Source of the DNA: Naegleria gruberi
Taxonomy: Eukaryota
Assembly: GCA_000004985.1 (NCBI GenBank)
Contig: GG738890.1
Reading direction: 5' to 3' (one strand)
DNA length: 64,000 bases
Positions 16,014 through 34,560 of this stretch are shown here, in pieces (position 1 is the first letter of the stretch; the number at the start of each line of letters is the position of its first letter). The translations under genes and the position numbers were made by a program. The notes below the pieces were generated by a model that was not told where the DNA came from, did not search any database, and saw only the letters and a list, made by a program, of their open reading frames with translations.

Positions 16014-19000
16014 ATGAAAATTCGTCGTTCAAAAAAAATGATGCAACAACAAGGTTTGCCAACTCTTGAACAAATCAAGACGGTGCTTTTGAATACCTTT
16101 AGTAACAATCGGGCTCAACAATTAGAAGCTGAAAATTTTCTTTCTCAATTGAGACATGTTAATGGGTTCTGTAGTTCAATTTTACAATTAGTTTTGCAAT
16201 CACAACAAGAAAATAGTCAACAAGCACTTTATATTCAACAGGCAGGTGTAATTTTCTTGAAGAATTTTATTACTAAAAACTATGACGAAAGAGGAAATTT
16301 CTTTGGAGAGGAAGATAGCGAACCAACTGAAAAGTTAATTCCTATCAGTGCTGAAGATAGACAATTTTTGAGAGAAAATATCTTGAAGGCTTTGGTAATG
16401 TCCTCAACTGTTATTCAAAGTCAATTGTGTGTTGTTTTACACACAATGATTTGTACTGATTATCCAGTTAATTGGGTTAATTTGGTTGATGAAATTGTTA
16501 ATTTGTTAAAATCTAATGATGTTAGATGTGTTTATGCTGCATTGTTGGCTTTGGATTCTTTGTTAAAGAGATACAAGACTGCCCTTGAAGATCATTATAG
16601 AATTGTTGTCAATGATATTGTTTCTAGAACCTTTGATATTGTCACTGGTTTGTTCCAATACTTGTTGAGTCAAAATACTGATGAATTTGCTGTTATGAGA
16701 AAGTTGATCGTTAAGGTTATTTGGTCTGCTTTCCAAAATGGTGTTCCTCAATATTATACTTTGGAAGTTAAAGAAGGAAAATTAGATAGATTTACCAAAC
16801 TTATGGAAATGTTATTGGAATCATACAAGATTCAAGTTCCACCTCTTAATATTGATAGTGTTGAAAATCCACATTGGAAAGTTAAAAAGTGGATTGGTCA
16901 CTTTGGTTATAGATTACTTTTAACATTCTCTGCTTTGGAAGTTAGACCAAATACTTCTGCTGAAGAAGCTAAAATTGCTGAATATTTCATTTCACAACAT
17001 GCTCAAAAATTCTTACAAATCTTCCTTCAATTAGTTCAATATAATATTAAGGGATCATATGTACCATATCGTATCATTACACTCGTATTTAGATACTTGG
17101 ATGGTTGTATCTCAAATCCTGATTTATACAAGTCAACTATTATTTCTAATTTGAAGGCTCTCATTGTAGAAACAATTTTCCCATATCTCTATTTCTCATC
17201 TGGTGATAAGGAACTCTGGGAATTTGATCCTCAAGAATGGATTAGAATTGGTTATGATCTTTCTGAAGATTTGTGGAACACTAGAATTAATGCCATGGGT
17301 ACCCTCACTACTCTCTTGACAACCAGAAGAAAGGATTCATTCGGTATCTATCTTCAATATATTACTGAAGTTTTGACCAATTATGCAAATGGTACTCACG
17401 TTAATCCATCTCTCAAGGACGCTGTTCTCTATACTATTGGTAACATGTCAAAACTCTTCTCAAAGAGTGCTATGACTAAGGATAAGATTGAAGATTTATT
17501 GTTAATGTTTGTTTTCCCAGAATTCACAAACACTCAACAACCATACCTTAGAGCTAGAGCTTGTTGGGCTCTTGGTAGATTTTCCGAAATTTCATACAAG
17601 AATCCATCTACTATGAATGACGGTATGAAGCACGTCTTGAACTGTCTCCAAGATAAGCAAATTCCAGTTAGAATTCAAGCTGGTTTGACTTTGAGTTGTT
17701 TGTTGAATTTAGAGAATTCTATCCAACAAATTAGACCAATTCTTCCACAACTTTTGGATGTCTACATGAGCATTATGAACGAAATGGAACATTCAACAGT
17801 CGTTAGAAGTATTGAACTTTTGGTTGGAGCATTTGCTGAAGAAATGGAACCATTCGCTGTTTCTATCTGTTCTAGAATGAGTGCTACCTACATTAGACTT
17901 TTGGATGAAGATGATAACGATTTGGACAATGCTGAATCTGATATTCTTATGGAAAACTGTATCCAAACTATTCTCACACTCATGCAATCCTTCACCTCCA
18001 AGCCAGGTGTTTATAGACAATTGGAACCTGTCATTTTACCACTCATTTTGAAGATTTTGGAAAATCAAGAATATGGTTACGATTTTGTTGAAAATGCCAT
18101 GGATATGCTCACATATTTGACTTATTATTGTGAAAATGGAATGGTTTCTGAAAATTGTTGGTCAATCTTACCTGCTATTTATGAAGCATTCAATGGATGG
18201 GCTTATGATTTTATTGGATATTTGGTTGCTTCATTAGATAACTTTATTTCCAAGAATCCTCAAAGATTCTTACAAAACCCAGATCATGTCACTATGGTTT
18301 ATCACTTGTGTGCTAAACACTTGGGTAAGGATGCTGAAACTGTTGAAAAGGAAGCTCAAGGCGCTTGTAAGATTTTGTCGAGCATGATGCAAAATTGTAA
18401 AGGTGCTATTGATAGTGAAATTCCAAAGTATCTTGAAATGGTTATGTGTCAAATTGATTTGGCTGAATCACCTGCTTTCACTGTTTTACTTTTGGAAGTT
18501 GTTGCTGATGCCATCATTTACAATATGGAGCTTGCTCTCAGTTTTATCGAATCCAAACAATTCACTGTTAAATTATTCTCCAAATGGTTCCAAACTTTAC
18601 CTAAATTCATGAGAGTTTATGATAAGAAGATTGCAGTTATTGCATTCTCTAACATTATTGGATATCCAAACTTTTCATCTCTTCCACAAGCTCTTCAAGC
18701 TAATGTTGAATATTTGGTTAATGCCTCTATTAGACTTTTGAAAGAAATTTCTGAACTCAAGAAGAAGCTTGCCGAAGAAAAGGATAAGGAAGAAGACGAT
18801 GGCGATTTTGAGGATGATTATGATAGTGAAGAAGAAGAATATAACAATGGTGGATCAACAACTGATAAGCAAATGACATTGACTGTTGACTCTTTGAAGC
18901 ATAATCCTCATCTTCAAAAGCTTGTTGAAACTCTTACCAGCTCATCATATGATGTTCAAGCTGATGAAGAAATTGATGAAATGGAAATCTTTGATTCCTT

Positions 19001-19148
19001 ACTCGACAAGTTTGACGAAAATGTTTACTTTGGTAAAGCAATGGTTTCCTTCTCCTCCTCTCCTTCATTCCAAGCTATTGTTGCTAAATTGAGCAATGAA
19101 GATAGCAACTCATTACAACAACTCATGCAAGCTTCGATGCAACAATAA
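16014..19148 (+). CDS. Importin-beta family karyopherin of importin-7/8 (RanBP7/Nmd5/Sxm1) type
   Basis: The 1044-aa HEAT/ARM-rich protein has an importin N-terminal domain pattern (…AQQLEAENFLSQL…FCSSILQLVL…) and an acidic C-terminal stretch, as in IPO7/8. The start may be the ATG at 16014 or at 16038. Confidence 0.75.
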   Translation: MKIRRSKKMMQQQGLPTLEQIKTVLLNTFSNNRAQQLEAENFLSQLRHVNGFCSSILQLVLQSQQENSQQALYIQQAGVIFLKNFITKNYDERGNFFGEEDSEPTEKLIPISAEDRQFLRENILKALVMSSTVIQSQLCVVLHTMICTDYPVNWVNLVDEIVNLLKSNDVRCVYAALLALDSLLKRYKTALEDHYRIVVNDIVSRTFDIVTGLFQYLLSQNTDEFAVMRKLIVKVIWSAFQNGVPQYYTLEVKEGKLDRFTKLMEMLLESYKIQVPPLNIDSVENPHWKVKKWIGHFGYRLLLTFSALEVRPNTSAEEAKIAEYFISQHAQKFLQIFLQLVQYNIKGSYVPYRIITLVFRYLDGCISNPDLYKSTIISNLKALIVETIFPYLYFSSGDKELWEFDPQEWIRIGYDLSEDLWNTRINAMGTLTTLLTTRRKDSFGIYLQYITEVLTNYANGTHVNPSLKDAVLYTIGNMSKLFSKSAMTKDKIEDLLLMFVFPEFTNTQQPYLRARACWALGRFSEISYKNPSTMNDGMKHVLNCLQDKQIPVRIQAGLTLSCLLNLENSIQQIRPILPQLLDVYMSIMNEMEHSTVVRSIELLVGAFAEEMEPFAVSICSRMSATYIRLLDEDDNDLDNAESDILMENCIQTILTLMQSFTSKPGVYRQLEPVILPLILKILENQEYGYDFVENAMDMLTYLTYYCENGMVSENCWSILPAIYEAFNGWAYDFIGYLVASLDNFISKNPQRFLQNPDHVTMVYHLCAKHLGKDAETVEKEAQGACKILSSMMQNCKGAIDSEIPKYLEMVMCQIDLAESPAFTVLLLEVVADAIIYNMELALSFIESKQFTVKLFSKWFQTLPKFMRVYDKKIAVIAFSNIIGYPNFSSLPQALQANVEYLVNASIRLLKEISELKKKLAEEKDKEEDDGDFEDDYDSEEEEYNNGGSTTDKQMTLTVDSLKHNPHLQKLVETLTSSSYDVQADEEIDEMEIFDSLLDKFDENVYFGKAMVSFSSSPSFQAIVAKLSNEDSNSLQQLMQASMQQ

Positions 19149-20632: not shown

Positions 20633-22848
20633 TTAATAACCTTGTTGCTGTTCAAAAGATGAGTTTTCTCCATCTTGGCGTTCTTCAGAGGATTGAGACA
20701 GTGAAAGGGCATTAGCTGTTTGTTTCATTAATTGAGTTACGGTAGCAACTTGTTTCTTAACTTGCTTGGCTTGCTCTTCCATATCTTGTGTTTCAAACAC
20801 TCCAAGACTCTTATAGATCGAATTCATGTAAGGAATCATTTTAACTTCAATAATCTTACGAAGGGCTTGTTTTTCCTTCTCCTTAGTTCCTAGCCCCGCA
20901 TCAGAAACTCTTTGTAAATGAATGAGAGCAGCTGTCTTTCTGTCAAGAGCATCTTCCAACATTTTTTGATGGTGATCATAGGCATCCAATTCCTCTTGAA
21001 GGGAAAGGATTGTTTCATCTCTTTCGTTTAATCTAGCTGTTAATGCAATCATGATATCTCGTTGTTTTAACAATAGTTGCTTATATCTGTCAACTTGTGC
21101 CTTATCTTCCTCTATGGATTGCCTTTCTCTCTCCAATTCTTGTAATTTTTTCTCATATTGTTTGTGAACTCGTTCATATTCTTGTTTAATCAACTTTCTA
21201 AAAGCTGGGGTTTCTTCAATTTTCTCACCACCAACTAGTAATTGGGATTGTAAGTGAGCAATCTTTTCTTCCAATTTTCTCTTCAAAGTCTTTTCGTGAA
21301 GGAACTCTCTTGATCTGGATTCCAATGCTTCAATGGCTGCCAATTTATCTTCTTCTGCTCTTCTTCTTTGTTCTTCTAATTCTAAAATTCTTTGTTTTCC
21401 AACAACAGTTTTACTCTTCTTTGAGAGCTCTATTCTGAGCTTCTTCAATTCTTTTTCGTATTTTCTAAGCAAAGCCCTTTGATCTAAATCCTCATTGACA
21501 GTTACAATATTCTTGATACATTTAGCTCTCTTGGCAAAGTGGAGAGTGGAGAGAGATTCACCGTGGAATTCCATAGCCGGAGAAACCATGGCCAACATGG
21601 TAGTCCTGCAATTACCTCCCAAACTGTCAGCCAATAAACTTGTAAGCTTTGAGTTTCTGTATGGAACATAGTTGTCTTTCTTTGTGAGAGCGGAAATAAC
21701 CATACCCAAACAAGTCAGAGACAAGTTGATCTTTTTAGTTTCTTCTAAAAGTTCTCCAGAGGCACCACTTACTGACACTCTTTCACTTCCAGCCAAGTCA
21801 ACAAGATTAAGCTTACCAATACGATAAGATTCTTTAACTTCCTGCACAACCTCTTTTCCAGTGATGGCGTCTGCATTGGCACAATCGATATCTTCCTCAT
21901 TTGAAATTGTTCTTTCCAAATGTTCTGCAACAATGATAAACACTGCGTGAGATCTACTACTTCCTTCGTTGAGTTTTGTAGGGGCTTTAGCTCTTCCCTT
22001 TCTTCCTTTGTCAATCAATTGATAAATTTCTTTAGGTGTTCTTACAACTTCTTCAGTCAACCCTTCAACGCAGGTTCCTTTCTTTTTATATTCTCTTATT
22101 GTTAAATTTGTTTTTGTTGGATCCAACAGATCATAAATTACTTCCTTATAAATTTGTAAGTAAGATGCTCTGATTAAAAAATTAACATTTGAAGATCCTT
22201 TTGTTTCAATATCTGATTCTATTTAAGAATATCGGAATCAATAAAACTTACATTCAAAAATGTCCTCTGTTGCTCTTGGAATAACACCTCTTAATTCCCT
22301 CTTATTTTCGAACCCTTCCATAGTATAGGTCTTGCCTGTACCAGTTTGACCGTATGCAAATAAGGTTGCCTGATTGAAAGTAAGATAAAATCAATCCCTT
22401 AACAACTTACATTGTATCCTTTAAGTACTGATAATACAGCTCCTCTGGCATGATTTTCATAAATTTCGTCTTGTCTACTATCCTCGCCATAGATATGATC
22501 AAATGTAAATGAATGTCCTACAGAGTAGTTTGCATCAGGTGAATCCGAAATCACCATGCTCTTCCTTGAATCACTAATCCTAATTGTACTGATAAGAGGT
22601 TCACCTCTATCTTGACATCCCTTTAATTCTCTTGGAAGGAATGGTCTAACACGAATAACAACGGTAATGTTTTCCTTTGGTGAATCATCATATTCAGCCT
22701 CGGCAACTGTGAGTTCTTCATGGTATTCTTCGTTTTCATCCTGAGCCAGATTATTTGTACTTTGACTTCTGTTGCCACTTGGCACAGCTCCTGAAGGCAA
22801 AGCAGTAATACTTCTTCTCAAACTTCCACTCGACTGACTTCTATTCAT
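20633..22848 (-). CDS. Kinesin motor protein with three exons: 22848..22411, 22369..22252 and 22212..20633. Introns are 22410..22370 (GTAAGT…CAG) and 22251..22213 (GTAAGT…CAG)
   Basis: Motor motifs: IRVRPF, GYN|[19 protein letters not shown] (P-loop, spanning intron 1), [16 protein letters not shown], and [18 protein letters not shown]. The neck sequence [16 protein letters not shown] is kinesin-2/OSM-3-like. A long coiled-coil tail follows. Exon phases check: 438 nt, 118 nt, then 1580 nt gives an in-frame total. Confidence 0.8.
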
Positions 22849-27199: not shown

Positions 27200-28162
27200 A
27201 TGCATCAAGATTGTTGGGCTGAAATTATTCCATTTTTGCAACCGATTGATGTTTTAGCTTCCCTCCTCACAATCAATCATAGCCTTCACAATTTAATTAA
27301 AAAATTGTGTATTGTTACTTTTGATAGAATTTCCCAATTTACAGCTGGTTGTTGTTCTGAGTTGAAAATTTCATTTAATTGTCATGATGATTTTGAAAAT
27401 ATTGAAAAGATTAATCATGATGTTCCAATATATGGGAATGTAAAATATTTCATCCGATTATACTTGTTAAAATTATCCTTAAAATTAGGAAATCAGGATC
27501 CTGAGAACGGAGATCTCAATGTAATTTCAGACATTTTGAATAGTTCAGAATTGAAATTGTTGAATTTCTATCGATCTGTCTTTACTGAATTTAAATTTCC
27601 ACAACAGAAAAATCCATCAACAATTGCTTATTGTGTGGTGGGAGAGGCTGGAGTTGGAACGTGCTACTTTTGTGAATTTGTTCGGTTTGGAAAAAAGTCA
27701 TATAGTTTGCGATATGGATTTGAATCCTTTTACAAAAAATTTACAATTCCAAACGAGATAGAATGGCAACAGCAAATTTGGATACCAGATGGATCTGAAA
27801 GGTTCTATTCGAAACAAGATGTTATCCAAAGATACAAAAAATATGATAAGAGCATGTATATTCTTCCATGTTTTTCAATGAATTATGAAACGTCATTTCA
27901 AACAGTAGGAGATTGGGTTTCAATTATTAGAGATACTCTTGGAATAATTGTTGGACTCAGTACTACAGATTTCTCACTAGATCCTCTTGAAGAAAAGAAA
28001 GTTAGTTTGAACGATGCTGTGAGGAAGGCATTCGAACTTGGATTTTCAGTATTTGTGGAATCTGATGACAATCACATATTTACTCCATTTTGGTTCATTC
28101 AATTGCAATCCACCTATTTCACTTTTAATAAGAATGATAATTGGGATTGTTCTCTAATGTAA
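27200..28162 (+). CDS. Hypothetical protein with an N-terminal F-box-like motif
   Basis: CWAEIIPFLQPIDVLASLLTINHSLHNLIKKL lies at the N-terminus. The ATG follows an A-run. Confidence 0.45.
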   Translation: MHQDCWAEIIPFLQPIDVLASLLTINHSLHNLIKKLCIVTFDRISQFTAGCCSELKISFNCHDDFENIEKINHDVPIYGNVKYFIRLYLLKLSLKLGNQDPENGDLNVISDILNSSELKLLNFYRSVFTEFKFPQQKNPSTIAYCVVGEAGVGTCYFCEFVRFGKKSYSLRYGFESFYKKFTIPNEIEWQQQIWIPDGSERFYSKQDVIQRYKKYDKSMYILPCFSMNYETSFQTVGDWVSIIRDTLGIIVGLSTTDFSLDPLEEKKVSLNDAVRKAFELGFSVFVESDDNHIFTPFWFIQLQSTYFTFNKNDNWDCSLM

Positions 28163-29031
28163 AAGTAATAAATAGTAGATTAAATACGCAGTTTAGGAAC
28201 TTGTTTGATATTCCAAACCTAATTAGAGCAAAAGACTACAGCACCACAGGTTCCCAAGTTGTCTCCAACCTCAGTACTGATGTGGCTCGACGATGCTTAA
28301 CTTCTCAAATCGGACGGGATGAGGTGCATTCATCGTGATATGGCCGTAGCCATTCAATTCATTATCGCTATGAATATAAAGAATATGGAACTTCTTTTGC
28401 ATAACTTAATGCAACTTAGTAATACTTAAGGTGGTTAACCTATTAAGCTCTGTAAAAAGTTATCCTTGATCAATCGATTCTCACGACCAACTCAATACAA
28501 ACTTTTAGTAATTAAGTTATAACAATTTAGTAACATTATTTTTGGATATTCTTTTTAGTTTCATTGGACGGGAAGCCTGCCAGGAATATGACTGTGCATA
28601 CAGTTGTATGAACAGTGAAGGCAACGAAGACAGAATCTTGTTGGTTCAGGTTTTGTTTGAAGAAATTGATTAGGTTGATCACCCTTCTATAAATTGAATA
28701 TTTGACTGGTAAATTGATGGATGCAAGTTTTGGTTTCTCATTTTCTGATCAAATCGAAATTGAAACTTCAAACAGTAGCTGCCTTAATTTAACCATTCTT
28801 AGCTTAAAATAAAATTTACAAACCAAGAAAGATGAAATTCTAAATTGATATGCTCGATTTTTAAAAAAACAACCACTAGTTTTTTTAAAAATCGCATGTA
28901 CTAAATAATTGTTCTGTACCATTACATTTTGTAGTTGAACATTTGCATTAATCACTTGATTATCATGGTTTTTGTTGTCTATTAAATTATGATATTTAAA
29001 AAATTCATAAACATAAATATTTTCAATATTA

Positions 29032-29166
29032 ATGGCTAGTTGCGAGGAACGATGCAACGTTAGTATTTCGACAAATTGTAAACAATAAAATTGAGTTGAT
29101 AAATAATTTTTATGCTCAAAAAAATTAAGAAACATGGTAAACACACCAAGCAAAATCATTGCTGAC
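29032..29166 (+). repeat. Split direct repeat A1 (5' terminal) of the YR retroelement
   Basis: It is identical to 33010-33144. Confidence 0.8.
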
Positions 29167-29278
29167 ACCCCTGGCAAAACAGTGACTGCTATCAGAAAAA
29201 TTATTTCTGCTAGTAAGTCAGCTGACAGCGTTTCAACTTACAAGTCTGGATATCCCAGCAATTGATGAAGGTAGTTCA

Positions 29279-30202
29279 GTGTCATCACAGACTAAACCTT
29301 TAGATAATAATCAAAGTGGTTCTGGAAATAACCCAGTTTCATCGCAAACTAAACCCTTGGATAACAACCAAGGTGGTTCTGAAAAGAACCTAGATGCTAT
29401 TCTTCACGCCATCACTTTATTGGGTGAGAGAATTAAACATCTTGAAGCAGTTCCACCCATCCTTCAAGAAGCTGATCAACTTGATGACAACTCTGATGAG
29501 GATTCTGCTGAAGATTCCACTGGTAAACATTGGGGTATGTCAACAATCAAGGAGATTAGAAGACACTACGAAGTTGGCGACAGATTAGCCGATGGAGATG
29601 TCTTAAGTTTTGTTTCAGCCAAAACTCTTCGTCGTTATCAAACCAATGATGCTCTTTTGAATAGAGTTCAATCATTAATGGCTAGATTTGAATCCGTTAT
29701 TCATAATCATCGTACTTATCCCCGTTTGCAAGAAATCCAATCAAAGGGCTTGCAAAAGATGATGGAAATGTTGCATTTGAAATCTAGACTACTCCATTTC
29801 GCTTTAAGTCACCCAATGAACGTTGCTAACATCATTGAAATCACAGAATTAGTTTATCTTCTCTGTGAGGTCGAGAAAATTTTCTTGGAAGAAGGTTTGT
29901 TTGATAGTAATTTTGAGGTTGCCACCAATTTCATTCAACCATTCGTACAGAGCAATACGTTCGCTGACATAACCGAAAAAGCACGTAGTAAGAAGAGAGA
30001 GAAAGCTGTTATCAAGACTGCTTTTGTTGGAAAGATTCAAAAACCCAACAAAATGAAAGAGAAGTTGAACAAACCCTACACTTCTCAACACAACAGCTAC
30101 TCTAAGTCTTACAAGAGTAACTCCAATTTTCAAAAATCAGGAGACTCAAAACCAAAGTACAACAACAACAACAGTGGAGGATCCTTCAGCAAGGACCTCT
30201 GA
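29279..30202 (+). CDS. Retroelement ORF1, gag-like, with no obvious 5' ATG. It may be translated from an upstream or non-AUG start
   Basis: It is the first long ORF after the 5' repeat. It is helical and Q/N-rich with a basic C-terminus and overlaps the start of the RT ORF by about 30 nt. Confidence 0.5.
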   Translation: MSSQTKPLDNNQSGSGNNPVSSQTKPLDNNQGGSEKNLDAILHAITLLGERIKHLEAVPPILQEADQLDDNSDEDSAEDSTGKHWGMSTIKEIRRHYEVGDRLADGDVLSFVSAKTLRRYQTNDALLNRVQSLMARFESVIHNHRTYPRLQEIQSKGLQKMMEMLHLKSRLLHFALSHPMNVANIIEITELVYLLCEVEKIFLEEGLFDSNFEVATNFIQPFVQSNTFADITEKARSKKREKAVIKTAFVGKIQKPNKMKEKLNKPYTSQHNSYSKSYKSNSNFQKSGDSKPKYNNNNSGGSFSKDL

Positions 30203-32057
30203 CTTGGTGGGTTGTCGTCTTGGCAAGTTTGTAACTCAGTGGGAGAGTTACAACTTCAACCCATTCATAGTGGATTGGATTCGGAATGGAGTTCCAATCT
30301 ACTCAAATCCCACCCTTTGGAAAGAATTCAAGCAAAGGAAGAATTTCTCTCCAAAGGAGACCTCTTGGATGGATCAAGAAATCCAAGAGATGTTGAGTTC
30401 CAATGTCATCGAACTTGGAAACAAATCTACGGTACTCAATCCAATAAACATTGTCCCCAAGAAGGGCTCAGATCAGTTTCGTTTTATTCTGGATCTCAGG
30501 AAAGTAAACTTGGGGATCAAGGATACTTCGTTCAAGATGGACAACATTCAAAAATGTTTGAAGTTTGTTCAGAAAGGAATGTGGGCAACAAAGATAGACC
30601 TGAAGAAAGGCTATTTTCATGTTCCCATCAGAGAGAGTCATCGACACCTTCTGGGATTCAAGTACAAGAGCCTTGTATACCAATTCAAATGCCTTCCATT
30701 TGGTCTAAGTCAAGCTCCCAGAAACTTCACCAAGATAATGAAGGAACTAATGACCAAGTGGAGAAAGCAGGGCATCTTGGTATTCATTTACATCGACGAT
30801 ATATTGATTCTAAGCAACCACAAGGAAACTACCCAACAACACACAGACATAATCTTGAAAGACCTAGAAACATTAGGATGGATTATACAGAAGGAGAAAA
30901 GTGTGTTGACACCTTGTCAATGCATAGAATTTCTGGGTCTGGAATTGGATTTAATATCAGGTTTGGTAAAAATTCCACTCAACAAACAAGCCACTGCGAT
31001 AAAACTGATCCAAGACTTCTTGTCAGCGAACCAACTGAACAGATATGTAGCTTGCAAGAAAGTGGCTCAGTTTCTTGGGAAGATGGAATTTCTAACCCTA
31101 TCAAACCATTATTTTGCACCATTTCTGGCTCGTCTTCGAAAGGATATGGTGAAAGTAGTAAACGACAAATCCTGGCACGCATCGATGAGAATATTCAGAG
31201 GTGCAACCAAAGACCTCAAGATATTGAAAACTCTGATTCAGGAAAACAGTGGAGTTCCATTCGAACTGAACTCAATGAACCCGATTCGAGTGAATTCAGA
31301 TGCTTGCCCAACAGGTTATGGAATTCACGCAGAATCAACCATTACAATTGGAAGATTCAATTCCTCAGAGCACATCAATGTCAAAGAGTTAAAAACACTC
31401 CTCATTTTCTTCACACAAGCAGATCAATTAAACCTTTATGGTCCTGGTCAGGCATTCGAGATAAGAGGCGACAATGTAACAGCAATATCTTATATAAGGA
31501 GAGGTTACGGAGTCATCGAAGAACTCTCACAAATAGCCAGAGATCTCTACAAAATTCTAATGAGAAGAAAATGGTGGATTTCCAAAGTGATTTATATTCC
31601 CTCAAAGGAAAACATTTTGGCGGACAGACTGAGTCGTCTAACAGAATGGAAATCCTCTCAAGAACTATTGAATCTAGTTCAGACAGAATTTGGAGAACAC
31701 CACGTGGACAGATTCGCAACATTGGAATCAACCACAACAATTCAATTCAATTCATGGATAGAGAACGACACATTTCTGAACCCATGGGAACAAAATCTGA
31801 TGAGCTATTGTGCTCCTCCTCTGGGTCTGATATCTCAAGCTCTAGTTCACTGCATCAAGTCAGGAGCCAAAGCGACATTTGTGGTTCCAGATTGGCCCTC
31901 TTCGATATGGTTTCCAGTCTTGCTAAAGATATCAGAAAGAATGATAACTGTTTCGAGAAAGATGCTTATAATAACGCCCTTATCAGAGTTGCAAGACAAG
32001 TTCGAGAATTCGAATTTCCTGGTTGTTCAAGTGCATGGCAAGTTATTCAAACAATGA
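30174..32057 (+). CDS. Retroelement ORF2: reverse transcriptase plus RNase H
   Basis: RT motifs FKCLPFGLSQAPRNFTK and LVFIYIDDILILS. RNase H motifs IRGDNVTAISYIRRG and NILADRLSR, as in DIRS/Ngaro pol. Confidence 0.8.
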   Translation: MEDPSARTSDLVGCRLGKFVTQWESYNFNPFIVDWIRNGVPIYSNPTLWKEFKQRKNFSPKETSWMDQEIQEMLSSNVIELGNKSTVLNPINIVPKKGSDQFRFILDLRKVNLGIKDTSFKMDNIQKCLKFVQKGMWATKIDLKKGYFHVPIRESHRHLLGFKYKSLVYQFKCLPFGLSQAPRNFTKIMKELMTKWRKQGILVFIYIDDILILSNHKETTQQHTDIILKDLETLGWIIQKEKSVLTPCQCIEFLGLELDLISGLVKIPLNKQATAIKLIQDFLSANQLNRYVACKKVAQFLGKMEFLTLSNHYFAPFLARLRKDMVKVVNDKSWHASMRIFRGATKDLKILKTLIQENSGVPFELNSMNPIRVNSDACPTGYGIHAESTITIGRFNSSEHINVKELKTLLIFFTQADQLNLYGPGQAFEIRGDNVTAISYIRRGYGVIEELSQIARDLYKILMRRKWWISKVIYIPSKENILADRLSRLTEWKSSQELLNLVQTEFGEHHVDRFATLESTTTIQFNSWIENDTFLNPWEQNLMSYCAPPLGLISQALVHCIKSGAKATFVVPDWPSSIWFPVLLKISERMITVSRKMLIITPLSELQDKFENSNFLVVQVHGKLFKQ

Positions 32058-32962
32058 GAGAAATCAGTATTCTCTCTTCAATAGGTGAAAAAACCTTCAG
32101 AACCTACAACAGGATTTATGGTGGTTTTCTTTGGTTTATCAATGTGTTCGATCTTACCATTGATAATCCTTTAGCTATTGAATATTACATCTCTTACCTT
32201 CTGGTTAATGTTCAAGGTTACAAAGCAAATACTGTGCAAGCAGCTATTCAATTCTTTGCTAACCTTGATGGCAGAACAATTAATATTTCTGTCTCTTACC
32301 CTAAAGTTAAAAAAGGTGTCCTTAAGCTTTATTCACTTTCGGATAAAGTTTCTCTTCAAAGAGATCCGATAACAATCAAACATTTGACTGATTATTTGAA
32401 GTGCAAAGACAAAGTGGATAATTTCACTTTCCGTCTTACTTCTGCTATTCTAGTAATTGGTTTTAGGCTATTTGCAAGACCTGGTGAGGTTGCGCGACTA
32501 AAATGGTCATATATCAAGATGCTTAAAAAAGGAAGAATCAAGATTGATCTCAGTGGTCATAAAACTGACTTCTTCCTTATTGAAAAACCAATTACTATCG
32601 AAAGGAATACTAAAGATCCTAATCTTTGCCCAATTTCAATACTAAAATCATACATGGATTTGGTTAGGAATTTCAAAGATGCTGAGTCCCCATTATTTTC
32701 CTTCGAAAACGACAAATTCTTTGATTCAGATGGTATTTCAAAGATACTAAAGAATGCAGTGGGTATAGTAGATCAAGGCGTAACAGTCTCAGGTCACAGC
32801 CTTAGAATAGGTGCTATCACAGAAGGACTCAGAAAGGGTATGTCTACAACTGATCTAATGGTCGGTGCAAGACATAAAAAGGAAAAAAGTTTATTTCCTT
32901 ACCTTAGATCTGAAGGCCTAGCTGGCAAGAATTTCACTAACACTCTATTTTCTCTGGACTAA
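31907..32962 (+). CDS. Retroelement ORF3: tyrosine recombinase (YR) in the +2 frame relative to RT. Only the part from ATG 31907 is likely to be translated
   Basis: Catalytic-box residues are present: ARPGEVARLKW (Arg), GHSLRIGAIT (His-x-x-Arg) and LFPYLRSE (Tyr). The track ORF 30212-32962 extends this frame 5' through the RT region. Confidence 0.7.
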   Translation: MVSSLAKDIRKNDNCFEKDAYNNALIRVARQVREFEFPGCSSAWQVIQTMREISILSSIGEKTFRTYNRIYGGFLWFINVFDLTIDNPLAIEYYISYLLVNVQGYKANTVQAAIQFFANLDGRTINISVSYPKVKKGVLKLYSLSDKVSLQRDPITIKHLTDYLKCKDKVDNFTFRLTSAILVIGFRLFARPGEVARLKWSYIKMLKKGRIKIDLSGHKTDFFLIEKPITIERNTKDPNLCPISILKSYMDLVRNFKDAESPLFSFENDKFFDSDGISKILKNAVGIVDQGVTVSGHSLRIGAITEGLRKGMSTTDLMVGARHKKEKSLFPYLRSEGLAGKNFTNTLFSLD

Positions 32963-33011
32963 CCCATTGGTTTATCAACGAAATTCTTTATTGTTTTATT
33001 TGGAGAAATAT
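32963..33011 (+). repeat. Split direct repeat B1 (internal), immediately 5' of A2
   Basis: It shares a 49-bp identity with 33637-33685. Confidence 0.75.
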
Positions 33012-33144
33012 GGCTAGTTGCGAGGAACGATGCAACGTTAGTATTTCGACAAATTGTAAACAATAAAATTGAGTTGATAAATAATTTTTATGCTCAAAAA
33101 AATTAAGAAACATGGTAAACACACCAAGCAAAATCATTGCTGAC
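33010..33144 (+). repeat. Split direct repeat A2 (internal)
   Basis: It is identical to 29032-29166. Confidence 0.8.
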
Positions 33145-33636
33145 CCACCCACCCATTCCCTTAATTTCATCAAGAATTCCTTGAATTCTTTCAAATAGTC
33201 CTTCACTCCTTGAGTGTTTTTTCCTATTTGTCTTTTAGTTTGATCTTGGTAAGTGATCCTTCTAAGGATGCAGGATTAGTATTACCTTGTGATACAATAA
33301 TTTTTATTTCTAACTAACATCATTTGAATAATTCGAAATATGCTCGTAAAGTAAGCCAGATTTATTTTTTCAAAAAATATTTCTGATAGAAATTACCAGG
33401 CATTTTTTTTCAAGCAATTCACTAGTTAAAATAGAGAACTTTAATGGATTGGAGTTTTTACCGATTTTTCCTGCAATGCAGGTTTTTTATAGGGGAGTTG
33501 TTCTACTTCAATCTCGATTTTGTAAACAACTTTATTAACTCGGGACAATGCTGAATAAAGTCAATGACCTAAAAGGCAGCATTTCCGAGCAACATACCTC
33601 ATCCTTTGGATGAAGAATATGTTGAGTGAGCTTCTA

Positions 33637-33685
33637 CCCATTGGTTTATCAACGAAATTCTTTATTGTTTTATTTGGAGAAATAT
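33637..33685 (+). repeat. Split direct repeat B2 (3' terminal)
   Basis: It shares a 49-bp identity with 32963-33011. Confidence 0.7.
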
Positions 33686-33699
33686 ATTAATAATATTAC

Positions 33700-34560
33700 T
33701 TTCCCTTGTACTTTTTAATAATGATATAATGATCTTATTATTATTCACATCAAAATTTTTAATTAGGTGTTTAGTATGATTATTATTAATTACATTTTTA
33801 ATATTAATTAATAAATTATCATGATTAACTTGTTGAATAATTAATTCTTGAATTATTTTATCTATTTTATCTAGTACTATGTTATTATTTGGAGTAATTG
33901 ATGAAGTAATAATAGTATTTCCAGATTGTTGAATATTGTTGGAAGATTCAATTGTAGAATTATTAATAGTACTGATTGGTATCGTTAAATTAATTGCAGA
34001 TTCTATTGTTGTTGTAGTAGTGTTTGTAGGTTCTATTGTTGTTGTTATTAAATTATTTGATGTTGTATTTGTAGGTTCTATTGTTGTAATTGATGTAATT
34101 ATTGAATCTGTTGTTGTACTTGTTAAATTATTAATATTTATAGTGTTTGTAGGTTCTATTATTGTATTTGTAGATTTAGTAGTTGTTGTTAAATTATTTG
34201 ATGTAGTGTTTGTTATTGGAGTACTTATTAAATTATTTGTAGGTTCTATTGTTGTTGAATTATTTATAGTATTTGTAGATTGTATTGTTGTACTTTTTGT
34301 AGGTTCTATTGGTTTTGAATGTCTTATTATTCTCTAAATTATGTTAATGAAATATAATTAATAAAACAAACCCGTTTTTTTGTTGTTGTTAAATTAGTAT
34401 GTTCTATTGTTGGTGTGGTTGTTATTAAATTATTTGATGTAGTGTTTGTTGGGTCTATTGTTGTTGTTAATTTAATTGTTGAATCTGTTGTTGTTGTTGT
34501 TAAAGTATTTGATGTAGCATTATTCGTAGGTTCTGTTGTTTTTAGTTTTTTGTGTCGCTT
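33700..34560. repeat. Degenerate tandem/low-complexity repeat tract. On the minus strand it is Thr/Asn-rich (TTIEPTNTTSNNL-type units). On the plus strand it is GTT/ATT-rich
   Basis: The units GTAGGTTCTATTGTTGTTGTT and AAATTATTTGATGTAGTGTTTGT recur irregularly. The plus-strand poly-Val ORF 33936-34337 is a repeat artefact. Confidence 0.5.

What the first reader, a model, noticed from the sequence alone, without database searches (positions are those of the whole stretch)
29032..33685. Apparently intact tyrosine-recombinase retrotransposon with split direct repeats (Ngaro/PAT/DIRS group)
The structure is A1-ORFs-B1-A2-(about 490 bp)-B2, with perfect 135-bp A repeats and 49-bp B repeats. Three ORFs encode gag-like, RT (YIDD)/RNase H and tyrosine-recombinase proteins, with the YR in an overlapping +2 frame. 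The A1/A2 identity and the intact catalytic motifs (RT FIYIDD; YR R…HxxR…Y) suggest a recent and possibly active copy. The roughly 490-bp segment between A2 and B2 is not typical of described Ngaro elements, which have B1A2B2 contiguous, and may be an element-specific 3' module.
Basis: partly seen in the sequence, partly recalled or inferred. Interest (0 to 1): 0.55.

Follow-up and report, generated by a model that had tools for sequence, protein, structure and literature searches.

The report
Near-intact DIRS/PAT-type retrotransposon in Naegleria
This is a real 4.65-kb jumping gene in the amoeba Naegleria gruberi that copies itself through RNA and inserts with a tyrosine recombinase; it belongs to the known DIRS/PAT kind rather than Ngaro, and one small deletion has broken its first gene.

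Summary
A1 (29032-29166) equals A2 (33010-33144), 135 bp at 100%. B1 (32962-33011) equals B2 (33636-33685), 50 bp at 100%. B1 and A2 share 2 bp (AT). A 491-bp non-coding spacer separates A2 from B2. The window is Naegleria gruberi.

The element belongs to the DIRS order but is not Ngaro. Its pol is RT-RNase H plus a degenerate Dam/PCIF1-like methyltransferase domain. The recombinase frame stays open across the whole pol ORF: 1 stop against about 39 expected, and the same holds in six relatives. These are DIRS1/PAT features. The termini are direct repeats, so structurally it is PAT-like, with the internal repeats downstream of the recombinase.

A relative at 83.5% identity (L086) confirms the left boundary. 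It also shows that this copy has a 2-bp frameshift deletion in gag, so the copy is not fully intact.

Family-wide extras:
- gag and recombinase share one frame, separated by a single TGA-C stop.
- The B|A junction folds as a conserved hairpin of about 110 nt.

Whether the spacer belongs to the family, and whether the flanking ATTAAT is a target duplication, could not be tested. DIRS-like sequences in N. gruberi were already reported in 2011. Moderate interest.

The parts
29028..29033 (+). Left flank hexamer ATTAAT. It is identical to 33686-33691. Its last two bases (AT) are also the first two bases of A1.
   Evidence: It is either a 6-bp target-site duplication (element = 29034-33685) or chance in AT-rich DNA, with crossover in the shared AT. 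Unresolved.
29032..29166 (+). A1, the 5' terminal repeat (135 bp). It contains the right arm of the junction hairpin (29064-29103), the conserved motif ATGCTCAAAAAAATT (29112-29126), and the gag start codon (29134) with its first 11 codons.
   Evidence: 100% identical to A2. In the related element L086, homology to this element begins at the same ATG while the upstream flank is unrelated. The motif occurs only in A1 and A2 in the window, 0.12 expected, and is also present in L002, with a truncated copy at the contig end of L001.
29134..29249 (+). N-terminal 39 codons of gag, in frame 1. They are cut off from the gag body by a 2-bp deletion at 29249/29250.
   Evidence: In the MAFFT alignment with L086 this is the only indel not a multiple of 3 (GG--ATATCCC against GGCTATATCCC). 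N. gruberi paralogues P0129, P0132 and P0136, and P0128, read ...YKSGYIPVTDNGSS... without interruption.
29250..30202 (+). gag-like ORF body (frame 2, open from 29186), ending in TGA followed by C (30200-30203). Includes a 57-bp tandem duplication at 29277-29390.
   Evidence: A conserved core is shared with L001, L002, L004-L006, L086 and the N. gruberi paralogues. No Pfam hit. No CCHC zinc knuckle. The AlphaFold model is all-helical but low confidence, pLDDT 43.5. It is 'gag' by position only.
30069..32057 (+). pol ORF (frame 0; open from 30069, listed from GTG 30174). It holds RT (30453-30947, FIYIDD 30783-30800), RNase H (D 31299, E 31386, D 31470, D 31623) and a degenerate methyltransferase domain (31644-31964; DRFA 31707-31718, APPL 31812-31823 in place of D/NPPY).
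   Evidence: RVT_1 at E 6.7e-26 and Dam at E 1.1e-4, below the cut-off. Dam hit in 19/20 and PCIF1_WW in 5/20 pol homologues. The profile matches Ty3 RT (4ol8, 9.6e-28) and a caulimovirus-type RT/RH over positions 41-494. Conserved columns; coordinates.
30203..32053 (+). Stop-free stretch of the gag/recombinase frame (frame 2), overlapping all of pol. 617 codons, rich in Ser/Arg/Gln, first ATG only at 30554.
   Evidence: 1 stop (the gag stop) against 38.9 expected from synonymous-codon shuffles of pol, minimum 24 in 2000. Same result in L001, L002, L004, L005 and L006: 0-3 against 29-42. L086 has no stop from 1758 to the contig end. Host genes show no depletion. pol third-position divergence from L086 is 0.275 against 0.37-0.42 outside the overlap, Fisher p = 6e-5.
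32054..32962 (+). Tyrosine recombinase (302 aa from the ATG that overlaps the pol stop as ATGA): N-terminal DNA-binding part plus catalytic domain.
   Evidence: Phage_integrase hit in 4 of 5 family members, best E 4.7e-10; window alone 0.012. The profile matches XerA (0.0022) and Cre (0.018). R142, K170, H248-x-x-R251, H274 and Y283 are conserved.
32962..33011 (+). B1, the internal copy of the 3' terminal repeat (50 bp). It starts at the last base of the recombinase stop codon. Its last two bases (AT) are shared with A2.
   Evidence: 100% identical to B2.
32971..33081 (+). Imperfect hairpin of about 110 nt across the B1|A2 junction. B arm 32971-33010, A arm 33042-33081 (40 nt, 70% complementary), with a small apical hairpin at 33017-33036.
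   Evidence: Folding gives -21.4 kcal/mol, z = -4.24, 0 of 200 shuffles as good. Equivalent hairpins lie just 3' of the recombinase stop in L001 (z = -4.20) and L002 (z = -5.02), with different sequences.
33010..33144 (+). A2, the internal copy of the 5' terminal repeat.
   Evidence: 100% identical to A1.
33145..33635 (+). Spacer X, 491 bp, between A2 and B2. Non-coding and unique.
   Evidence: No ORF longer than 36 aa. No significant similarity to the element interior, to relatives or to the rest of the window. No Rfam hit. RNA fold z = -2.89. GC 32.8%.
33636..33685 (+). B2, the 3' terminal repeat.
   Evidence: 100% identical to B1. Identity ends where B1 runs into A2 and B2 runs into the flank.
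33686..33691 (+). Right flank hexamer ATTAAT.

Best explanation
Positions 29032-33685 (4,654 bp) are one copy of a tyrosine-recombinase retrotransposon (DIRS order) in the Naegleria gruberi genome.

Coding layout: it is the DIRS1/PAT type. It has a gag-like ORF and a pol made of RT, RNase H and a catalytically degenerate Dam/PCIF1-like methyltransferase domain. The recombinase catalytic part lies 3' of pol, and its reading frame stays open backwards through all of pol.

Termini: they are split direct repeats (A1-ORFs-B1A2-X-B2), which by structure makes it PAT-like. The internal repeats lie downstream of the recombinase, followed by a 491-bp non-coding spacer.

Inferred mechanism, from published models for DIRS-1 and for Ngaro/PAT:
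- An RNA starts inside A1, probably just after the hairpin arm near ATGCTCAAAAAAATT, and ends in B2.
- Reverse transcription restores the missing ends by annealing to the internal B1A2 copy. That makes A1=A2 and B1=B2 at birth.
- The ends are joined into a B|A junction, and the recombinase inserts the product at a short AT match.

Inferred expression:
- gag and recombinase share one frame, interrupted only by a TGA-C stop. The recombinase is therefore most likely reached by readthrough of that stop, giving a Gag-linker-YR fusion.
- pol sits in the +1 frame, which opens 131 nt before the gag stop in this copy (131-290 nt across the family). It is reached either by frameshifting within that overlap or by its own initiation.

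State of this copy: it is young (repeats identical) but carries a 2-bp frameshift deletion early in gag. It is probably not autonomous unless Gag is supplied in trans or started from a downstream AUG.
For: Shown:
- Exact repeats and their boundaries.
- The host is N. gruberi: the neighbouring importin-7 ORF is 100% identical to the N. gruberi protein.
- RT, RNase H and MT domains.
- Recombinase domain and catalytic residues.
- The left boundary is confirmed by an independent insertion in L086 (83.5% identical) with an unrelated flank.
- The overlapping frame is kept free of stops in seven related elements but not in host genes.
- pol third positions evolve more slowly inside the overlap (p = 6e-5).
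- gag and recombinase are in the same frame, and the gag stop is TGA followed by C, in all seven. Asp GAC usage is 49%, so 6 independent GACs have p of about 0.014.
- The junction hairpin is conserved in three diverged members.
- The gag frameshift is shown by L086 and four homologous proteins.

From the literature:
- Long pol/YR overlap, with the catalytic domain in the non-overlapping 3' end, is a DIRS1-like trait; Ngaro and VIPER lack MT and usually lack overlaps (PMC3266345).
- MT plus split direct repeats defines PAT (PMC4157794).
- DIRS1-type MT domains are considered inactive (PMC4738411).
- The annealing model implies that the repeats are identical at insertion (PMC6681497).
- The DIRS-1 RNA contains little of the left terminal repeat and nearly all of the right one (PMC3950715).
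Against: - Only one copy with a complete 3' end was available, so the spacer X and the right boundary rest on this locus alone.
- No RT/YR phylogeny against DIRS1, PAT, Toc3, kangaroo or Ngaro references could be built.
- Readthrough, frameshifting, the transcription start and end, and circle formation are all inferred, not observed.
- The amino-acid sequence of the overlap frame is only weakly constrained: six-way synonymous codon identity is 0.447 against a null of 0.400, and is not significantly above the recombinase region.
- The ATGA overlap of the pol stop and a recombinase ATG in 5 of 7 elements would also allow termination-reinitiation.
- The flanking ATTAAT hexamers look like a target-site duplication, which DIRS-order elements are reported not to make.
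Confidence: 0.8

Rival explanations
1. The structure is two units from two events. One is a full element A-I-B (29032-33011). The other is a short non-autonomous or remnant unit A-X-B (33010-33685), joined head to tail by recombinase-mediated insertion of one circle at the B|A site of the other. On this reading X is not part of the replicating full-length element.
For: - Both units have the same A...B ends, and the joint is a precise B|A junction.
- X has no similarity to the interior.
- Solo AB units are known for Ngaro in Cafeteria (PMC8547959).
- In L002 the second A copy extends at least 246 nt into gag and differs at 7 positions, including ATG to ATA. That looks more like the start of a second diverged unit than a short repeat.
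Against: - A retrotransposon made from a linear RNA needs an internal copy of its end junction. B1A2 followed by a 3' terminal segment is exactly the layout of DIRS-1 (ICR then right repeat) and of split-repeat elements.
- 100% identity of both A and both B follows automatically from the replication model. Two independent units would both have to be very young.
- No free A-X-B or A-I-B unit was seen, although the rest of the genome could not be searched.
Confidence: 0.12
2. It is an Ngaro-superfamily element with an unusual 3' module.
For: [quoted passage not shown]
Against: - A methyltransferase domain is present in pol.
- There is a long pol/recombinase ORF overlap.
- A2 and B2 are not contiguous.
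- Distant single-ORF (about 1,060 aa) relatives found in metagenomes are only 22-25% identical.
Confidence: 0.03
3. It is a true DIRS1-like element whose inverted terminal repeats and internal complementary region have become hard to recognise.
For: - The coding layout and long ORF overlap are DIRS1-like.
- Piednoel et al. assigned the N. gruberi sequences to DIRS1-like by similarity.
- A contains a 40-nt, 70% inverted copy of B. So the left and right termini are weakly inverted, and each is weakly complementary to the internal junction in the geometry that DIRS-1 uses.
- A several-hundred-bp segment follows the junction copy, as the right repeat does in DIRS-1.
Against: - The perfect matches are direct (135 and 50 bp at 100%), while the complementarity is only 70% over 40 nt and does not reach the element ends.
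- X is not an inverted copy of the 5' region; the best match is 25 nt at 80%.
Confidence: 0.04
4. X is foreign to the element: a later insertion of another short sequence, or captured host DNA, exactly between A2 and B2 of an originally contiguous B1A2B2.
For: - X is unique and non-coding, with a GC content (32.8%) close to the window average (33.3%) and below that of the ORFs (35-40%).
- The first bases of X (ACCCATT at 33151-33157) resemble the start of B. This could be a decayed older B copy (by eye only).
Against: - No terminal repeats or duplication mark the edges of X, and it has no similarity to anything else in the window.
- An insertion landing exactly at the A2|B2 boundary would be a coincidence.
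Confidence: 0.04

Closest known systems
PAT-like elements (Pat1, Toc3, kangaroo) of the DIRS order
   Same: - RT-RNase H-methyltransferase pol plus a tyrosine recombinase.
- Split direct repeats A1...B1A2...B2.
- No zinc knuckle in Gag and a forward-oriented recombinase, as described for Toc3 (PMC4157794).
   Different: - Here the internal repeats lie after the recombinase and are followed by 491 bp of non-coding sequence. In nematode Pat1 and kangaroo they lie between MT and YR, so the A2-B2 interval is coding there.
- Here the recombinase frame overlaps all of pol and shares its frame with gag.
- Phylogenetic relationship not tested.
DIRS-1 of Dictyostelium and DIRS1-like elements
   Same: - Same three-ORF content.
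- Degenerate MT domain.
- Long pol/recombinase ORF overlap, with the catalytic domain in the non-overlapping 3' end.
- An internal copy of the end junction, followed by a terminal segment of a few hundred bp.
- A short shared sequence at the junction (3 bp in DIRS1-like elements, AT here).
   Different: DIRS1-like termini are inverted repeats, and the internal region is complementary to them. Here the internal region is a direct, perfect copy of the termini, with only a weak (70%, 40 nt) inverted component.
Ngaro elements
   Same: [quoted passage not shown]
   Different: Ngaro elements lack the MT domain, usually lack ORF overlaps, and have B1A2B2 contiguous.
DIRS-like sequences of Naegleria gruberi reported by Piednoel et al. 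2011 (PMC3266345)
   Same: Same genome. Seven sequences in six families were reported. The gag search here also finds several paralogous loci on other N. gruberi scaffolds (P0129, P0130, P0131, P0132, P0136).
   Different: Those sequences were described as too damaged for phylogeny or repeat analysis, and were called DIRS1-like by similarity alone. This copy has open pol and recombinase frames and clear termini, and the termini are direct, not inverted.

Membership tests
DIRS order (tyrosine-recombinase retrotransposons) | pol with reverse transcriptase and RNase H related to Ty3/Gypsy | tested here: met
   RVT_1 at E 6.7e-26. The profile matches Ty3 RT at 9.6e-28, and an RT/RH polyprotein over positions 41-494. 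The D-E-D-D columns are conserved.
DIRS order (tyrosine-recombinase retrotransposons) | Tyrosine recombinase in place of a DDE integrase; no protease | tested here: met
   Phage_integrase hit in 4/5 family members, best E 4.7e-10. XerA and Cre matches. R, K, HxxR, H/W and Y are conserved. No integrase or protease family was found in any ORF.
DIRS order (tyrosine-recombinase retrotransposons) | gag-like first ORF | tested here: inconclusive
   The ORF is conserved in the family, but has no Pfam hit, and the structure model is unusable at pLDDT 43.5. It is 'gag' by position only.
DIRS order (tyrosine-recombinase retrotransposons) | Insertion without target-site duplication | tested here: inconclusive
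   ATTAAT is present on both sides if the ends are drawn at 29034/33685. Alternatively a 2-bp AT is shared by both ends and the internal junction. One locus, AT-rich flanks, no empty site available.
Ngaro | No methyltransferase domain in pol | tested here: not met
   Dam (PF05869) hit at window residues 491-597, E 1.1e-4. Hit in 19/20 homologues, with PCIF1_WW in 5/20. The DxFA and xPP columns are conserved.
Ngaro | A1-[ORFs]-B1A2B2 with the three 3' repeats contiguous | tested here: not met
   B1 and A2 abut, but 491 bp separate A2 from B2.
Ngaro | ORFs usually not overlapping | tested here: not met
   The recombinase frame is open across all of pol in seven family members.
DIRS1-like | RT-RH-MT pol, and a long pol/YR overlap with the catalytic domain in the non-overlapping 3' end | tested here: met
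   Definition taken from PMC3266345.
DIRS1-like | Inverted terminal repeats plus an internal region complementary to both termini | tested here: not met
   The terminal-internal matches are direct and perfect. The only inverted relation is 40 nt at 70% between A and B.
PAT-like | MT domain together with split direct repeats | tested here: met
   Definition taken from PMC4157794.
PAT-like | Zinc finger in Gag (Pat1 subgroup only) | tested here: not met
   The window gag body contains a single Cys and no CCHC motif. This matches the Toc3/kangaroo condition rather than Pat1.
PAT-like / DIRS1-like | Placement in an RT/RH (and YR) phylogeny with reference elements | not testable with these tools
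   Reference sequences (DIRS-1, PAT, Toc3, kangaroo, Ngaro1, VIPER) could not be retrieved. Published trees do not recover PAT-like or DIRS-like as clean clades in any case (PMC6681497).

The most novel reading that the evidence does not exclude
This heterolobosean family may be a structural intermediate between split-direct-repeat (PAT) and inverted-repeat/ICR (DIRS1) elements.
- The B|A junction is a conserved palindrome-like hairpin of about 110 nt.
- A carries an inverted copy of B, so the termini are both direct copies of, and partly complementary to, the internal junction.
- A segment of about 0.5 kb sits where DIRS-1 has its right inverted repeat.

Szitenberg et al. (PMC4157794) state that such intermediates 'are not observed'.

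The whole element is also read in one frame from the gag ATG to the recombinase stop, with a single leaky TGA-C. pol is nested in the +1 frame. A Gag-linker-recombinase fusion would then be made by readthrough.
Probability: 0.2. Interest if true: 0.55.

Novelty: new member of a known kind. Interest (0 to 1): 0.35.

Why it matters
DIRS-order elements are rare and poorly understood. Their presence in Excavata was flagged as uncertain because only damaged copies had been seen (PMC3266345). A copy with open pol and recombinase frames and clean termini in N. gruberi, plus seven related elements from metagenomes, gives three things:
- It settles that the order is present in Heterolobosea.
- It shows that the Naegleria elements have direct termini, not inverted ones.
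- It provides a compact family in which three open questions become testable: how the recombinase is translated from a frame that overlaps all of pol, what the internal junction does, and whether a 3' spacer is tolerated or required.

For genome annotation, it explains the N. gruberi 'predicted protein' P0126. This model patches the gag frameshift with an ab initio intron, so it is an artefact.

Tried and rejected
- **Intron in gag.** GTAAGT at 29213 and TTCAG ending at 29279 would restore the frame, and they match the two kinesin introns in this window (GTAAGT...ATCAG, 39-41 nt). Rejected: L086 and four homologous proteins encode that stretch continuously, and the only out-of-phase difference is a 2-bp gap at 29249/29250.
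- **Other N. gruberi copies.** Exact look-ups of the window pol, two neighbouring ORFs (importin-7 and 27200-28162), P0129 and P0132 found no contigs.
- **Metagenome scan with the pol family profile.** It gave only distant relatives (22-39% identity). Those examined have a single ORF of about 1,060 aa and a different architecture, so they say nothing about the spacer.
- **Relationship of X to the interior.** blastn with word size 7 and tblastx gave nothing significant. Rfam gave nothing in X. The bacterial-type promoter and terminator scan is not meaningful for a eukaryote.
- **Gag fold.** The AlphaFold model is too poor (pLDDT 43.5) for a fold search.
- **Amino-acid constraint on the overlap frame across six diverged members.** There is only a small excess of synonymous-codon identity, not significantly above the recombinase region. 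The clearer signals are the absence of stops and the reduced third-position divergence from L086.
- **N. fowleri relative (L003).** It is degenerate, with no terminal repeats.

Full report
**Observation.**
- A1 29032-29166 and A2 33010-33144 are 135 bp and 100% identical.
- B1 32962-33011 and B2 33636-33685 are 50 bp and 100% identical.
- B1 and A2 share the dinucleotide AT.
- 491 bp (33145-33635) lie between A2 and B2.
- The BLAST E-values are 6.6e-66 and 9e-20, and the window holds no other copy.

The element is 4,654 bp. Its ORFs have 35-40% GC, against 23-31% in the flanks. The frames are as described: a gag-like frame to 30202, pol 30174-32057 with FIYIDD at 30783-30800, and a recombinase ending at 32962 in a different frame.

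**Host.**
The neighbouring importin-7 ORF (16014-19148) is 100% identical to the Naegleria gruberi protein. Other neighbours are ordinary eukaryotic genes. The closest named pol homologue is from N. fowleri. That locus (L003) is a degenerate copy without terminal repeats.

**What kind of element.**
- pol matches RVT_1 (6.7e-26). Its C-terminal third matches the Dam methyltransferase family (1.1e-4, below the Pfam cut-off).
- In an alignment with 19 homologues, 19 of the 20 sequences hit Dam and 5 hit PCIF1_WW. The DxFA and xPP columns are conserved.
- The motif reads APPL in place of D/NPPY. This fits the published view that DIRS1-type MT domains are inactive (PMC4738411).
- The pol profile matches Ty3 RT, and a caulimovirus-type RT/RNase H through position 494.
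- The recombinase has R, K, HxxR, H/W and Y. It matches Phage_integrase in 4 of 5 family members, and XerA and Cre among solved structures.
- Ngaro and VIPER lack MT. DIRS1-like and PAT elements have it. PAT is separated from DIRS1-like by split direct repeats in place of inverted repeats plus ICR (PMC4157794, PMC3266345, PMC3783388).

By these published criteria the element is PAT-like in its termini and DIRS1/PAT-like in its coding content. It is not Ngaro.

**Relatives.**
- Five metagenome or Logan contigs (L001, L002, L004-L006) carry pol at 52-57% identity, with the same gag-pol-YR order.
- A gag profile search found this locus's own JGI gene model (P0126). It also found paralogues on three other N. 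gruberi scaffolds (P0129, P0131, P0136; P0132; P0130) and a closer metagenome relative (P0128 on L086).
- L086 is 83.5% identical over 3.5 kb, and its A repeat is 91% identical. Homology begins at the same ATG as 29032, while the upstream flank is an unrelated host-like ORF. That independently confirms the left boundary.
- L086 ends inside the recombinase, and the other contigs end in or before A2. N. gruberi scaffolds could not be retrieved. The right end and the spacer therefore rest on this locus alone.

**Not fully intact.**
- The gag ATG is at 29134, inside A1, in frame 1. The gag body is in frame 2.
- I first considered a 67-nt intron (GTAAGT...TTCAG), which matches the two kinesin introns in this window.
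- The L086 alignment shows a single out-of-phase difference: a 2-nt gap at 29249/29250, with all other indels multiples of 3.
- Four homologous proteins read YKSGYIPVTDNGSS straight through.
- This copy therefore has a frameshift deletion 116 nt into gag.
- The JGI model P0126 hides the deletion with an ab initio intron from the ATG at 29032.

**One frame through the whole element.**
- In the window, frame 2 has a single stop (the gag TGA at 30200) between 29186 and the recombinase stop at 32960.
- Synonymous-codon shuffles of pol expect 38.9 stops in that frame, with a minimum of 24 in 2000 shuffles.
- The same holds in L001, L002, L004, L005 and L006 (0-3 against 29-42). L086 likewise has no stop in that frame from the gag stop to the contig end. 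Three host genes show no depletion.
- Against L086, pol third positions diverge 0.275 inside the overlap, against 0.42 in gag and 0.37 in the recombinase (Fisher p = 6e-5).
- Across the six deep relatives, the amino-acid sequence of the overlap frame is hardly constrained.

Long pol/YR overlaps, with the catalytic domain in the non-overlapping 3' end, are a known DIRS1-like trait. Three details go beyond that here, and I did not find them described in the papers I read:
1. gag and recombinase are always in the same frame.
2. The gag stop is always TGA followed by C (GAC usage 49%, p about 0.014 for six lineages).
3. The first ATG after the stop is not conserved.

My inference is that the frame must stay translatable so that ribosomes reading through the gag stop can reach the recombinase. 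The rivals are termination-reinitiation at the ATGA pol-stop/YR-start overlap (present in 5 of 7 elements, absent in L086 and L002) and independent initiation. pol is in the +1 frame, which opens 131-290 nt before the gag stop. Frameshifting within that overlap or separate initiation both remain possible.

**Junction hairpin.**
- A contains a 40-nt, 70% inverted copy of B, so the B1|A2 junction folds into a hairpin of about 110 nt (z = -4.24).
- L001 and L002 have equivalent hairpins immediately after the recombinase stop (z = -4.20 and -5.02), with different sequences.
- A conserved ATGCTCAAAAAAATT follows the hairpin, 7-20 nt before the gag ATG.
- Its function is unknown. Candidates are a recombinase site in single-stranded cDNA, a promoter or 5' leader, or help in bridging cDNA ends as the DIRS-1 ICR does (PMC3950715, PMC7192593).

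**Spacer X.**
X has no ORF above 36 aa, no similarity to the interior, to relatives or to the window, and no Rfam match. It is only moderately structured, z = -2.89. In layout it occupies the position of the DIRS-1 right terminal repeat, after the internal junction copy. In nematode Pat1 and kangaroo the A2-B2 interval holds the recombinase gene. So a gap between A2 and B2 is not new to the order, but a non-coding one downstream of the recombinase may be. The main rival is that A-X-B is a separate short unit joined in tandem. I cannot exclude this without other copies.

**Ends.**
The junctions share only AT: left ...ATTA|AT|GGCT, internal ...AAAT|AT|GGCT, right ...AAAT|AT|ATTA. This is comparable to the 3-bp junction of DIRS1-like elements. 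Drawn two bases further in, however, the element is flanked by ATTAAT on both sides. With one locus in AT-rich DNA this stays open.

**Verdict.**
This is a real, young, nearly intact DIRS-order retrotransposon of N. gruberi. It is PAT-like in its termini and DIRS1-like in its coding layout, not Ngaro, and it has a broken gag. DIRS-like sequences in this genome were reported in 2011, but only as damaged fragments called DIRS1-like by similarity. I found no later description. It is a new, better-preserved member of a known kind, with a few family features worth a specialist's follow-up.

Noticed in passing
window 29277-29390: A 57-bp tandem duplication (82% identical) in the N-terminal part of gag, encoding SSQTKPLDNNQ(S/G)GS twice. 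The alignment with the close relative L086 shows 39-nt and 9-nt gaps here.
   Followed up: partly
window 29032-30202 (protein P0126): The N. gruberi 'predicted protein' annotated at this locus (344 aa) starts at the ATG that is the first base of A1. It uses an ab initio intron to reach the gag frame. This is a gene-model artefact caused by the 2-bp frameshift.
   Followed up: yes
window 33960-34560: The right flank is a degenerate array of T/G-rich repeats (units of about 30-45 and about 96 nt, 60-90% identical) in DNA of 22.6% GC. It has no long ORF on the minus strand.
   Followed up: no
window 29351-29395 (-): A sub-threshold Rfam match to the histone 3' UTR stem-loop (24.7 bits against a gathering score of 34, E 0.0011) lies inside the gag tandem duplication. 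Probably chance.
   Followed up: no
window 33204-33225 and 33470-33491: Two short GC-rich hairpins in spacer X, each followed by a run of six T. With a third inside A2 (33017-33036) that makes three such sites in 32900-33800, against 0.3 expected from shuffles. The meaning in a eukaryote is unclear.
   Followed up: no
window 22220-22258 and 22370-22410 (- strand): The kinesin gene has two very short introns (39 and 41 nt), both GTAAGT...ATCAG. They are useful as a local splice-site reference for N. gruberi.
   Followed up: partly
L086 218-685: In the related metagenome contig, a 155-aa host-like ORF runs straight into the element's A1. That insertion therefore sits at or in the 3' end of a gene.
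   Followed up: no
L002 61-306 and 4079-4324: The A repeat of this relative is at least 246 nt and covers the gag start and its first 49 codons. The downstream copy differs at 7 positions, including ATG to ATA. So the A2 copy is non-coding, or it is the start of a second diverged unit.
   Followed up: partly
window 30171-30183; L001 1157-1167; L005 1036-1046: A conserved (A/G)TGGA(G/A)(G/A)(A/C)TCC lies in the gag/pol overlap. It reads M/V-E-D/T-P in the pol frame: ATG in L001 and L005, GTG in the window. It is a possible pol start or shift site.
   Followed up: partly
L009, L010, L011, L035, L037, L030 (metagenome contigs): These distant relatives (22-25% identity) have a single ORF of about 1,060-1,100 aa and 120-280-bp direct repeats at the two contig ends. 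They are a different architecture, or circular or tandem assemblies.
   Followed up: no
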